Assembly (NCBI GenBank): GCA_038127595.1
Contig: JAYPIC010000027.1
Span: forward strand, 1-23,464
Source: a bacterium
Lineage (GTDB): Bacteria; Fidelibacterota; Marinisomatia; Marinisomatales; UBA1611
Direction of reading: 5' to 3'
Length of the DNA: 23,464 nucleotides
The position numbers are program-made. The first letter of the stretch is position 1, and each line of letters opens with the position of its first letter. Positions 15,494 to 18,400 of this stretch are shown here, piece after piece.

Positions 15494-18400
15494 GCTGAGC
15501 TACTCTCGCAATATTCAAATTTACATACTACTTATTTATCAGACAATTCAGTTTTTGGAAAAAACTCAAGAAATTTTTCTTTTCGAACGTAAACAAAATA
15601 AGAAAATAATATAAAAATGAAATTTTCTATTAATTTTTCAAAACCAACTAATTGCCCCTCTTTTAGTCCACATCCACAATCTATATTAAAACCGCGGGCC
15701 ATGGCTTGAGCTATCATAATATTAAAAGTAATAAGCAAAACTGAGCTAATTATGATTGAACCATCAACCATAACGCCTATTATTAGCCCAGTGCCAATAA
15801 AAAACTCTAACCAAGGTAGAATCAAAGCAATAGTGTTTTCTAGCCCTAAAGGCACAATATGGTAATTTGAAATATCCCTTGCAAACTTGGCTGGGTCAAT
15901 GATTTTATCAAAACTTGCCCATAAAAAAATGGCACCTACAACAATTCGAAAAAATAAGGTTAAATATTTATTCATAAAATGTTAGTAATACTTTGCAGGT
16001 AGGTTATTTTCAATCCATTGCTTCCAACCGCCCTTAAATAAGTATATAGACTCAAAACCCTGTTCATACAATTGATAACTGAGTTCTTCGCTTGAACCAC
16101 AATCATCATCACTACAATATACCACGAAGGCCTTTTCTAAATTATCAAAACTATATATTTTATCAATTAGCTCGTCAAGTTCATCACTACATATAGCACC
16201 AGGTATGTGCCCATCGTTAAAATATTCCTCAGCTCTTGCATCTATAAATAGAGTTCCTTGCTCATAGAGACCTTTCGCAATCTCAATATCAATCTCTACT
16301 ATTCCAGAAGGTTCATTAGAATTAGCAAGTTCATCAATATTATCTATTTTTTTTAAATCTTTAGCTATCATACTTACAGGATTAGGTCTAATAACATTAA
16401 GGGCCAAACTAATTATAACTGAGATGGTTATTAACGCATATACTTGATACTTTGGACTATTAAAATTCATTATTAAAATTTCAAAAAGTTAGATCGATCA
16501 GTTATTTTTTTCCGTGCTTTTTTGAATGGTTGTGATTGTGGTGAGAATTTTTATTATCAGATTTTTTTGATTTATCTAGTTTTGCACATTTATCTAAAGC
16601 ATTATCAACCATAGCAAGGAGTTCTGGATCATCTTTGATCTTTTTATTGAGAGCAAAGCTTGTAAATCTCATTTTATTTTTTGCTTTTTGTAAAATAGTT
16701 TCAGCAGTGCTTAGATCATTTCTGTAACGTTTTATTAAACTCAAAATATTATCCTGCCCAGCATAAATATCTTCCAATGCCTTAGTAGGATCTTTCTTCT
16801 GAAGCCTCTTCAAACGATTATTTAACTGCTTTATTTTTTGCTCCTGAGCAGAAACATCAGATATTGGGTCTGTGCTGTTATTAATATCAAGATCTACTAC
16901 AGTTAAATATTTCCCCTGCTTTCCATTGGAGTAGACATACGGTCCTTCGGGCTTTTGGGGCATTGAAGCGCTTGTCCTGTGTGTACTTCCGCTCGTAAAA
17001 ATAAAATCTGCTTTTGGAAAATTTTTTGCTAATGAAGATTGTGAACTACGATCAGTATTAACTAATAAAATAATTAAATCCACTTTACCTTTAATTTCAT
17101 TTATTAATCTATTCCCGGATATAATATAATCTTCAACACCTACGCTGGTCATTGTATCAGGAATCATATTTGACAGCCCTATAACCCCTAAATTCAATCC
17201 ATCTCTATTTAAGGTAACATATGGCTTAAATAATAATTCTCCAGAATCTCTATATTTGATATTGCCAGATATGAAGGGAATACTGGAGTACTTATTTTCC
17301 ATCTTTTTTAAAAATGAGATTCCAGCTAAGACTTCGTATTTACCGATGTTGAGAGCACTACACCCTATTTTCTCATAACCCTTTAACATTGTTTCACATC
17401 TAAACTTTTCTGAATTAATATTATTGACATTTATATTTGTTTTACTAAAAAACATATCACCAGCATCTAATATCAATGGATCATCGCCAGCTTTTCGCAT
17501 ATCTTCAATAGCAATGAATTTTCTAGACAGACCGCCCAGAGGATTCTTTTTTCATCCACACGGATCTAGTTGACCATGCACACTACCAGTAAGGACCATT
17601 TTTATTTTTGCCTCTTTACTAGGGTTTTCACATGAAGTATTGAAGACACTCATGAACGCAATCAATATATGTATATGTAAATATTTCATACTCTAAATTT
17701 AACCACCACTGGCTTTTACTTTAAAGCCTCTTTCAATTAAAATGTTCATAACTTTTTCTCGATGATTTCCTTGAATTAAAATCTGTTTATCTTTTACTGA
17801 TCCTCCGACACCACATGCTCTTTTAAGTTCTTTTGATATTTTTATTAATAGTTGGTCATTCCCTTTCATTCCAGTTACCACGGTAAGAATTCTATTTCCC
17901 GGTAACCTTTTAAGAAGACATTTAAGATTTTGTTTAACATTAGGTATTTGCTCTATACTTTCTGATTTTTCATTTTCAAATGAAAAATTTTCATCTGTAG
18001 AGTAAACAATGTTTTTTCGTTTTTTCATATTTTTTCAAGAAGAATAATTTTAATTTTTGTAAAACTCCAATCAAATAAATTTTAAAGCATGGAAGTCGCT
18101 AAAAATATAAAATATTTTAAATTATACATATCTCAATTCTTTTTTTTTCTATGTACAATAAAAGGTCAATCATATAATGATCTATCCATAGATCTTGACC
18201 AAGCATATTTTAATTTAAATGAACTTAATTTTGAAACGAACATTTCAGCAGATAGTCTTAACAATGGCAAGCTAAAAATTAATTCCTTTCAATTTGGTTT
18301 TGATAAAATCAATTTTGATAACATAAAGGATAAATCTATAAAAATGAAAGTTCATGGACCTGAACTTTTTATTGATTTTATGGAATTTCGTTCAAATTAC

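What a model noticed while it worked through the whole genome (the two positions that open the first line are those of the whole stretch)
15532..17653. Phylum-wide selenoprotein on a degenerate 5'-nucleotidase fold, in an operon with rhodanese and MauE
An in-frame TGA joins two gene calls (g01016+g01015) into one 383-aa lipoprotein with the motif HGQLDPCG-U-KKNPLGG, a member of the 'UshA-like PCGU' selenoprotein family that is on record only as a name; here it is seen to be nearly universal in Fidelibacterota (Cys in the streamlined lineages) and always followed by a membrane-anchored rhodanese and a MauE/DoxX-like membrane protein. I read the three as one periplasmic sulfur (or selenium) transfer module in which a 5'-nucleotidase/SoxB-like fold has lost its di-metal site and works through a Cys-Gly-Sec centre. 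New would be a function and partners for an orphan selenoprotein family and a core sulfur-handling module of the SAR406 clade.
Evidence so far: Calls 13/14: ORF C27:16502-17653(-) with one in-frame TGA. Call 18: 200 database relatives, either cut just after the TGA (~330 aa) or full length with W at that place (callers using code 4) (alignment call 19). Call 42: match in 173 of 201 phylum genomes; nearly all listed rows have exactly '1 TGA' inside; the ~1-Mb streamlined family f3 and a few others have no stop there; in 4 such genomes read out the place holds Cys (D/EPCG-C-P/R), one paralogue lacks the motif: the classic Sec/Cys pair. Call 57: motif HGQLDPCGUKKNPLGG identical in 6 loci and conserved hairpin CTGGGCGGTCTG(T/C)C(C/T)AG 11 nt after TGA. 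tRNA-Sec, SelA, SelB, SelD all present (rna.tsv; g01580-82, g00920). Calls 55/58: AF2 [...]
(Added by a program. Inside this text positions count along the whole contig: contig position 1 is position 1 of the stretch shown here. "Call 12" and the like, gene names such as g00115 and contig names such as C1 are that model's own, and its searches are not shown. The text may have been shortened before it was handed on; [...] marks where a part breaks off. The agent that wrote the report below was given it as the finding of a first reader that could run no searches.)

Follow-up and report, generated by a model that had tools for sequence, protein, structure and literature searches.

The report
Selenoprotein beside a disulfide-forming gene pair
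This exported selenium-containing protein is a heme-less form of an already catalogued family, and its two neighbours look like a machine for making disulfide bonds rather than for moving sulfur, which gives the orphan protein a testable redox role.

Summary
The selenoprotein is real. The gene probably starts at 17689 (395 aa, not 383). The SECIS codon GGC is fixed in 60 of 60 TGA genes but in only 2 of 11 Cys genes, and the two Cys lineages lack SelA. The fold is a 5'-nucleotidase N-domain without its metal ligands. It scores below the NF041198 cutoff and lacks that family's four-heme cytochrome domain. 'Always followed by rhodanese and MauE' is wrong: MauE is adjacent in 58 of 145 genomes, all in one class, and in 0 of 70 in other classes. 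The rhodanese-MauE pair is a separate unit with invariant CxxxxC and CGC motifs, sometimes fused. A 2026 preprint shows CGC-type MauE replaces DsbB, so the pair most likely makes disulfides rather than moving sulfur. The triple recurs outside the phylum with a heme-fused copy (3 of 80 metagenome loci), so a functional link is plausible but not shown. This scan noted the gene twice and the heme-bearing triple once on other DNA. Verdict: new variant of a known kind; best reading is a periplasmic thiol/selenol oxidoreductase.

The parts
16502..17689 (-). UshA-like selenoprotein gene, 395 aa, Cys44-Gly45-Sec46; 5'-nucleotidase N-terminal fold plus helical extension; no heme domain
17630..17689 (-). 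Signal peptide ending in a probable lipidated Cys20 (inferred; Cys in 55 of 62 aligned rows)
   Evidence: lipobox-like pattern in 42 of 72 genes
17552..17554 (-). In-frame TGA read as selenocysteine 46
17523..17539 (-). SECIS core hairpin, 12 nt after the TGA
15982..16470 (-). Membrane-anchored rhodanese-fold protein, 162 aa, active loop Y-C119-x4-C124
15532..15975 (-). MauE-family four-helix membrane protein, 147 aa, with K24, E57 and C100-G-C102; probable DsbB-like disulfide generator
   Evidence: AF2 of an orthologue
15436..15509 (-). tRNA-Gly(GCC); a tRNA-Gly or tRNA-Ala is the most constant neighbour of the selenoprotein gene across the phylum
15399..15426 (.). Terminator-like hairpin after the tRNA (listed for the + strand; a T-run also follows it on the - strand)
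   Evidence: sequence
17699..18028 (-). YciH/SUI1-family gene 9 nt upstream, found upstream in 24 of the 30 best loci; probably co-transcribed, no evidence of a functional link

Best explanation
The gene makes an exported, usually lipid-anchored thiol/selenol oxidoreductase. It uses a 5'-nucleotidase N-terminal domain as a scaffold without a di-metal site and works through a Cys-Gly-Sec loop that cycles between selenol/thiol and a selenenyl-sulfide. SHOWN by sequence comparison: Sec decoding, fold and loss of metal ligands. INFERRED: redox cycling. Many relatives in other phyla carry a four-heme c554-like domain where the nucleotidase substrate domain would be, giving a built-in electron route; this phylum's form has none. 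The neighbouring rhodanese and MauE form a separate two-protein disulfide-generating unit. MauE's periplasmic CGC would pass electrons to quinone (DsbB-like activity shown for two other MauE proteins, quinone binding only docked). The tethered rhodanese CxxxxC would supply the second, shuttle cysteine pair that MauE lacks (inferred). In the window's class the selenoprotein most likely exchanges disulfides with this unit and acts on periplasmic protein thiols as a DsbA- or DsbC-like stand-in (inferred; direction of electron flow unresolved). The link is optional, since several lineages keep the selenoprotein without the pair.
For: C44 is kept in 83 of 88 rows and U46 reads Sec/Cys in 76, plus 7 W that are probably TGA read as Trp, while the metal ligands vary. 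SECIS codons are fixed only in TGA genes. Full NF041198 members carry four CxxCH; 0 of 72 phylum genes carry any. Rhodanese C119/C124 are invariant in 56 of 56 rows and MauE CGC and E57 in 57 of 57, K24 in 56 of 57. Two loci fuse the pair with an extra helix that keeps both dithiols outside. Rhodanese lies upstream of MauE in 58 of 66 metagenome loci with room; other neighbours include DsbA-like, CcdA/DsbD and DUF1573 proteins. MauE with CGC complements E. coli dsbB. No DsbB, VKOR or DsbA family match was found in the window's genome. Adjacency is kept in two gene orders within the class. It recurs as rhodanese-MauE-Sec/four-heme protein-NapH/MauN ferredoxin in L139, L140 and L167, whose selenoproteins fall outside the phylum's group in a quick tree.
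Against: No activity or binding is shown. The genes are adjacent in only 58 of 145 phylum genomes and 0 of 70 in other classes. No rhodanese or MauE lies near 20 relatives from other phyla (5-kb flanks) or near 30 from a Desulfobacterota-centred search (1.5-kb flanks). The selenoprotein is kept where a close MauE was not found (f3 0 of 13, f20 0 of 6, f19 weak hits only). The gene's most constant neighbour is a tRNA. The three outside loci are close kin and count as one event. The genome has 14 AhpC/TSA-type thioredoxin-fold matches that could serve MauE instead. The window's MauE has CGCGL, not the CGCF that the preprint calls highly conserved. The MauE model's best structural match is TMEM35A/NACHO (Z 13.6).
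Confidence: 0.45

Rival explanations
1. The selenoprotein is a redox enzyme with its own unrelated partner or small-molecule substrate (for example a peroxide, sulfoxide or selenium/sulfur oxyanion reductase fed by an unlinked carrier). The rhodanese-MauE pair merely came to lie next to it at a tRNA locus in one class.
For: 0 of 70 adjacent in other classes; kept without the pair in f3, f19 and f20; second copies lie elsewhere with no pair nearby; tRNA-Gly/Ala is the constant neighbour; 0 of 50 relatives outside the phylum have the pair nearby.
Against: Adjacency survives a change of gene order within the class and recurs in a distant heme-fused lineage. In family f24, genus g52 keeps both a MauE and a less diverged copy, while g48 shows no MauE and weaker matches.
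Confidence: 0.28
2. One reading: a periplasmic sulfur or selenium transfer module in which the rhodanese carries a persulfide, the selenoprotein accepts or releases it, and MauE links it to quinone.
For: The rhodanese has Cys at the canonical active position. There is weak SoxB similarity. A DoxX-rhodanese (SseA) complex is known in mycobacteria (recalled; one search did not retrieve that paper). SelD lies just upstream of a relative in L108.
Against: The second Cys in the rhodanese loop is invariant. CGC MauE is a demonstrated disulfide generator. The pair's other neighbours are DsbA/CcdA-type genes. The triple is not obligate. The SoxB score is 48.6 against a cutoff of 550.
Confidence: 0.14
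3. The Cys-Gly-Sec loop binds a soft metal (Cu, Hg, Zn) and the protein is a periplasmic metal chaperone or scavenger.
For: CxC/CxU motifs bind such metals (general knowledge). The window protein ends in a His-rich tail.
Against: His-rich tails occur in only 4 of 72 genes. Fusion to a four-heme cytochrome points to electron transfer. I recognised no consistent metal-transport neighbour in the ORF lists, most of which were not family-scanned.
Confidence: 0.07
4. It is still a phosphoesterase or thiosulfohydrolase with a remodelled site.
For: Fold match to UshA/CD73, Foldseek E 1e-20. The window copy keeps H38 and D78.
Against: The DxH Asp is present in 3 of 88 rows, the GNHE His in 7 of 100, and the later two His in 16 and 14 of 100. 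The substrate-binding C-domain is absent. The genome has a separate 633-aa nucleotidase-like protein.
Confidence: 0.04
5. The TGA is a true stop, or a code-4 tryptophan.
For: Database entries are cut after the TGA or carry W there.
Against: The TGA is conserved at one position across all classes and in Desulfobacterota. SECIS codons are fixed. Cys replaces it in the lineages without SelA.
Confidence: 0.01

Closest known systems
NCBIfam NF041198 UshA-like (seleno)protein, PCGU; the 'COG0737 UshA-like CxU' family of the GOS survey (PMC2398784) and of later reviews (PMC9312934, PMC13188914)
   Same: PCG-U motif, GGLxRK with the SECIS inside it, 5'-nucleotidase N-domain, Sec/Cys pairs; best NCBIfam match (E 6e-64).
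   Different: Below cutoff (216.5 of 275) and lacks model positions about 400-519, which in full members are a four-CxxCH c554-like cytochrome. In the passages I saw, the papers give only the name, motif and counts, with no function.
MauE as a DsbB-like disulfide generator (bioRxiv 10.64898/2026.03.05.709764; Caldithrix and Desulfatibacillum proteins)
   Same: Four helices, CGC in the loop between helices 3 and 4, conserved Lys and Glu on helices 1 and 2; genome without DsbB or VKOR matches.
   Different: The preprint proposes a thioredoxin-fold partner and does not contain the words rhodanese or seleno. Here the constant partner is a two-Cys rhodanese. The window copy has CGCGL instead of CGCF.
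E. coli UshA / CD73 5'-nucleotidases and SoxB
   Same: N-terminal metallophosphoesterase fold.
   Different: Most metal ligands and the catalytic His are lost; no C-terminal substrate domain; Cys-Gly-Sec sits in the loop after motif I.
DsbB-DsbA and VKOR-thioredoxin relays; mau cluster MauE-MauD-MauM/N (general knowledge)
   Same: A membrane dithiol enzyme next to exported dithiol proteins; a NapH/MauN-type ferredoxin follows the triple in L140.
   Different: Neither the rhodanese nor the selenoprotein has a thioredoxin fold.
Mycobacterial DoxX-SseA-SodA complex (recalled, not retrieved)
   Same: A DoxX-clan membrane protein working with a rhodanese.
   Different: By recall it is cytoplasm-facing with a two-domain sulfurtransferase; here a single-domain, outward-facing two-Cys rhodanese.

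Membership tests
NF041198 UshA-like (seleno)protein | PCG-U/C motif followed by GGLxRK | tested here: met
NF041198 UshA-like (seleno)protein | Whole-protein score at or above the curated cutoff of 275 bits | tested here: not met
   216.5 bits, model positions 3-399 of 519
NF041198 UshA-like (seleno)protein | C-terminal four-CxxCH cytochrome domain, present in all seven single-domain members at or near cutoff (not stated by NCBI as a defining feature in any call) | tested here: not met
   0 of 72 phylum genes carry CxxCH; no c554-like match in the window's genome
Bacterial selenoprotein | Conserved in-frame TGA with Cys homologues | tested here: met
   60 TGA, 11 Cys and 1 without motif among 72 genes read
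Bacterial selenoprotein | SECIS hairpin just 3' of the TGA under selection | tested here: met
   GGC in 60 of 60 against 274 of 1337 background Gly codons; 2 of 11 in Cys genes; paired stem variants
Bacterial selenoprotein | Sec machinery in the genome | tested here: met
   tRNA-Sec and SelA; SelB and SelD were not checked
5'-nucleotidase (UshA/CD73) | Metallophosphoesterase N-domain fold | tested here: met
   pLDDT 93.9; Foldseek E 1e-20
5'-nucleotidase (UshA/CD73) | Di-metal ligands and catalytic His (DxH, GD, GNHE, H, GHxH/Q) | tested here: not met
   Window has S36/H38, D78, K117/Y118, N211, G234/T236; family counts; motif mapping; ligand roles recalled
5'-nucleotidase (UshA/CD73) | C-terminal substrate-binding domain | tested here: not met
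   395 aa against 500-550; target TM about 0.4
SoxB thiosulfohydrolase (TIGR04486) | Score over cutoff | tested here: not met
   48.6 against 550 bits
MauE (PF07291) DsbB-like oxidase | Pfam match, CGC loop between helices 3 and 4, conserved Lys and Glu | tested here: met
   91.3 bits against 27
MauE (PF07291) DsbB-like oxidase | Complements E. coli dsbB | not testable with these tools
   Shown only for two other MauE proteins
Rhodanese sulfurtransferase (PF00581) | Rhodanese domain with active-site Cys | tested here: met
   57.1 bits against 22.2; C119 invariant
Rhodanese sulfurtransferase (PF00581) | Sulfur-transfer activity | not testable with these tools
   No assay possible; the invariant second Cys124 suggests a disulfide
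NF041203 rhodanese-related (seleno)protein LYCAU | Score over cutoff | tested here: not met
   51.1 against 115 bits

The most novel reading that the evidence does not exclude
The three genes encode a periplasmic oxidative-folding relay with no thioredoxin-fold member: quinone, then MauE CGC, then a tethered two-Cys rhodanese as shuttle, then a selenoenzyme built on a dead nucleotidase fold that acts as the DsbA or DsbC equivalent for exported proteins of an abundant marine lineage. In other bacteria the same selenoenzyme would be wired to its own four-heme cytochrome instead.
Probability: 0.22. Interest if true: 0.78.

Novelty: new variant of a known kind. Interest (0 to 1): 0.42.

Why it matters
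The family has been listed as a function-less selenoprotein since 2008, and it was among the twenty commonest in ocean metagenomes (PMC2398784). Seeing that it is often fused to a four-heme cytochrome, that this phylum keeps a heme-less form in most genomes searched, and that it has come to lie beside a MauE-rhodanese pair in two distant lineages turns it into a testable periplasmic redox enzyme. The rhodanese-MauE pair is itself a candidate answer to which protein MauE oxidises where no DsbA is found. The gene is mis-called by standard annotation across the phylum. It does not support a core sulfur-cycling module.

Tried and rejected
(1) Obligate three-gene operon: rejected by coordinates and by reading 40 more distant loci. 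(2) A separate c554-like partner in the window's genome: tblastn with two cytochrome domains gave nothing better than E 0.27. (3) The triple in other named phyla: 0 of 20 loci and 0 of 30 loci read, out of 92 matching genomes of 151; the latter flanks are only 1.5 kb. (4) His-rich tail as a family feature: 4 of 72. (5) Promoter scan: 17 sites against 16.1 expected, uninformative. (6) The MauE orthologue model gave TMEM35A/NACHO as best match (Z 13.6, rmsd 2.3, 119 aligned); DsbB and VKOR were not among the 50 rows shown, which does not exclude likeness. (8) No ESM Atlas result and no cluster names were obtained, so the taxonomy of L139/L140/L167 and of the window's phylum is not confirmed; those loci lie in no held genome. 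(9) Contigs from RNA libraries bridge the genes (X1 15695-17670, X2 15775-17985), but contigs cannot show one transcript and DNA may be present. (10) Literature searches that found no description of the pair, the triple or the heme fusion: MauE+rhodanese (2 irrelevant listings), rhodanese+CXXXXC+disulfide, nucleotidase+cytochrome c554+selenocysteine, UshA+selenoprotein+cytochrome c+heme (4 listings, not read), Marinimicrobia+selenocysteine (4 listings, not read), DoxX+SseA+rhodanese (1 listing, not read). Subscription papers are outside this library, and the preprint's supplements, which list MauE fusions, were not visible.
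Full report
1. THE GENE. On the minus strand an ATG at 17689 opens a 395-codon frame to 16502 with a single internal TGA at 17554-17552. The longer start gives a hydrophobic leader ending at Cys20, a position that is Cys in 55 of 62 aligned rows. Downstream come a rhodanese (PF00581, 57 bits), a MauE (PF07291, 91 bits) and tRNA-Gly, with gaps of 31, 6 and 22 nt; YciH lies 9 nt upstream.

2. SEC DECODING IS WELL SUPPORTED. A hairpin at 17539-17523 begins 12 nt after the TGA (z -3.4). I read 72 homologous genes from the phylum: 60 have TGA, 11 Cys and 1 lacks the motif. In the 60 TGA genes the first Gly of the GGL motif is GGC in 60 and the second GGT in 58, against 274 and 443 of 1337 Gly codons elsewhere in the same genes; in the 11 Cys genes GGC occurs twice. 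The stem varies in paired fashion (CTGGGC/GTCCAG, CTAGGC/GCCTAG, CTTGGC/GCCAAG). These genes are kin, so the counts are not independent, but the contrast is clear. SelA is over cutoff in 146 of 201 genomes. Family f3 gives only weak hits and f24 gives 0 of 33, and these are the two Cys lineages; G154, G031 and G082 carry Cys despite SelA. The window's genome has tRNA-Sec and SelA; SelB and SelD I did not check.

3. DISTRIBUTION. 186 of 201 phylum genomes match at E<=1e-3, but some weak rows are ordinary 490-550-aa nucleotidase-like proteins. 145 genomes have a listed near-full-length match; I dropped 5 of the 150 listed rows as second matches in the same genome. A quick tree of 61 domains groups 32 of 33 rows assigned to the phylum (SH-aLRT 91) and roughly follows order and class, which fits vertical inheritance; the careful search did not finish.

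4. WHAT THE PROTEIN IS. The best family is NF041198, at 216.5 bits against a cutoff of 275 and over model positions 3-399 of 519. Members at or above cutoff have a C-terminal domain with four CxxCH motifs related to cytochrome c554; none of the 72 phylum genes has one, and no separate copy was found in the window's genome. Heme-less forms also occur outside the phylum (for example P0058, P0079, and several loci). The AlphaFold model (pLDDT 93.9) matches the N-terminal domain of UshA/CD73. Aligned to solved nucleotidases, the motifs DxH, GD, GNHE, H and GHxH read S36/H38, D78, K117/Y118, N211 and G234/T236. Across 100 aligned rows the first Asp is present in 3 of 88, the GNHE His in 7 of 100, and the later His in 16 and 14 of 100, while C44 is kept in 83 of 88. 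The roles of those ligands are recalled. SoxB scores 48.6 and UshA 46.3 bits, so nothing singles out SoxB. The family is in print as a name, motif and counts: 76 Sec sequences in the GOS survey (PMC2398784, passages), table rows in PMC13188914 and PMC9312934 (passages), and 12 organisms in a supplement row of PMC5029168, whose supplement also marks some SAR406 genomes as Sec users (passage and supplement hits).

5. THE OPERON CLAIM. All 30 best loci, from the window's order, show selenoprotein then rhodanese, and 29 then MauE; the contig of L002 ends first. More distant loci break the rule. From the coordinates, MauE lies within 1.5 kb in 45 of 47 genomes of the order outside f3 and in 13 of 13 of families f15-f18, where the order is rhodanese-MauE-selenoprotein. 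It is adjacent in 0 of 10 f3, 0 of 5 f19 and 0 of 70 genomes of other classes, 60 of which have MauE elsewhere. For G193 I counted the adjacent one of its two copies. A MauE family search reached cutoff in 1 of 5 f3 genomes and 1 of 3 f20 genomes. The steadiest neighbour is a tRNA-Gly(GCC) or tRNA-Ala(GGC).

6. THE RHODANESE-MAUE PAIR IS ITS OWN UNIT. Rhodanese sits directly upstream in 19 of 20 MauE loci fetched from other classes and f19, the exception being a remote 314-aa f19 protein, and in 58 of 66 metagenome loci with room. The loop Y-C-x4-C is invariant in 56 of 56 rows, and MauE CGC and E57 in 57 of 57, K24 in 56 of 57. L048 and L051 fuse the two with an added helix, so both dithiols would face outward (hydropathy inference). 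Among 47 proteins scanned, 43 of them picked from 77 flanking ORFs, DUF1573 appears 11 times, CcdA/DsbD 3 times and DsbA-like proteins twice. A 2026 preprint (10.64898/2026.03.05.709764; parts 1-3 of 4 read, supplements not seen) shows that two CGC-type MauE proteins complement E. coli dsbB and need both cysteines, and points to a conserved Lys and Glu near docked quinone. It does not mention rhodanese. DsbB was found in 1 of 121 phylum genomes (a doubtful hit with stops) and VKOR in 22 of 121, neither in the window's genome, which also gave no DsbA match at 96% completeness. DsbB and VKOR use two cysteine pairs (general knowledge) and MauE has one. I infer that the tethered rhodanese supplies the second.

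7. IS THE SELENOPROTEIN PART OF IT? Against: section 5, plus no rhodanese or MauE near 20 relatives from other phyla or 30 from a Desulfobacterota-centred search, and 14 thioredoxin-fold AhpC/TSA matches in the genome that could partner MauE. For: adjacency survives a reversal of gene order. In addition, 3 of 80 metagenome MauE loci (L139, L140, L167; GC 52-60%) read rhodanese-MauE-Sec protein with four CxxCH, followed by a NapH/MauN-type ferredoxin (scanned in L140; a similar ORF start follows in the other two). L140 and L167 pass the NF041198 cutoff. Their domains form a separate group outside the phylum's, so this is probably a second origin, though only one event, and an old triple lost many times is not excluded. 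Binding could not be modelled.

8. MECHANISM. Most likely (0.45) the protein is an exported thiol/selenol oxidoreductase whose Cys-Gly-Sec loop exchanges electrons with fused hemes in many bacteria and, in this class, with the rhodanese-MauE-quinone relay, serving periplasmic protein thiols. Rivals are an unrelated redox role with chance adjacency (0.28), sulfur transfer (0.14), metal binding (0.07), a residual hydrolase (0.04) and a true stop (0.01). Sec decoding, fold, ligand loss and gene neighbourhood are shown by comparison. Every chemical step is inferred.

9. VERDICT. The gene family is known, and this scan flagged it twice before on other DNA (e1-4926958, e1-2315096). My searches found no paper describing the pair or the triple. 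New variant of a known kind; interest 0.42.

Noticed in passing
L048:1880-2950 and L051:1875-2942 (family f17): Natural rhodanese-MauE fusions (356-357 aa) with one extra transmembrane helix between the domains.
   Followed up: partly
L100, L102, L104, L105 (Ca. Electronema and other Desulfobulbaceae), downstream of the match: In cable bacteria and relatives the four-heme UshA-like gene (Cys form) is followed by a membrane-anchored c-type cytochrome with 2-3 CxxCH motifs. L102 and L103 keep an intact SECIS-like sequence after a TGC codon, suggesting a recent Sec-to-Cys change.
   Followed up: partly
L108:3191-4896; L204:1-573: A SelD-like gene (recognised by eye from its GAGCAAK motif; AIRS_C match for L204) lies just upstream of a UshA-like four-heme gene in L108 and of a rhodanese-MauE pair in L204.
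   Followed up: no
G000 C15:36429, C2:50615, C29:5644, C5:25800: Four AhpC/TSA-family matches in the window's genome contain one in-frame TGA each; probable further selenoproteins.
   Followed up: no
G000 C14:12795-15782: A 996-aa open frame with 8 CxxCH motifs, the only protein with more than two in the genome by this census.
   Followed up: no
L245 (G192:C87), L246 (G047:C27), L049 (G193:C24), L247 (G196:C29): Second TGA-bearing copies. No rhodanese, MauE or tRNA was found beside them; L247 has YciH upstream and its contig ends inside the gene. L068 (G067) is a paralogue lacking the CGU motif.
   Followed up: partly
L032-L036 (family f3), at the tRNA-Gly: A conserved 160-aa ORF on the opposite strand abuts the tRNA-Gly where rhodanese and MauE are missing; not identified.
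   Followed up: no
MauE orthologue L083, model m07551c7528bf: Best structural match is human TMEM35A/NACHO (Z 13.6, rmsd 2.3, 119 residues), well above the next row at 9.1.
   Followed up: no
window 4566-8717: GldA/GldF/GldG-like ABC transporter genes (all below cutoff), a 187-aa unknown and a divergent GroES-like gene.
   Followed up: no
window 12216-12872: D-Ala-D-Ala dipeptidase of the VanX/DdpX type (205.8 bits, below the VanX cutoff of 320) in a run of peptidase-like genes.
   Followed up: no
window 4038-4304: An 88-aa ORF with a signal-like start and a very Lys/Gly-rich tail; no Pfam match.
   Followed up: no
window 19433-22044: Two tandem repeat proteins with weak matches to the LIC20035 adhesin family; the first ends in a BamD/YbgF-like TPR region.
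   Followed up: no
P0034, P0092, P0093, P0098, P0145: Long relatives that join one or two UshA-like CxC domains to further Cys-rich domains, two of them with a C-terminal cytochrome; domain names not determined.
   Followed up: no
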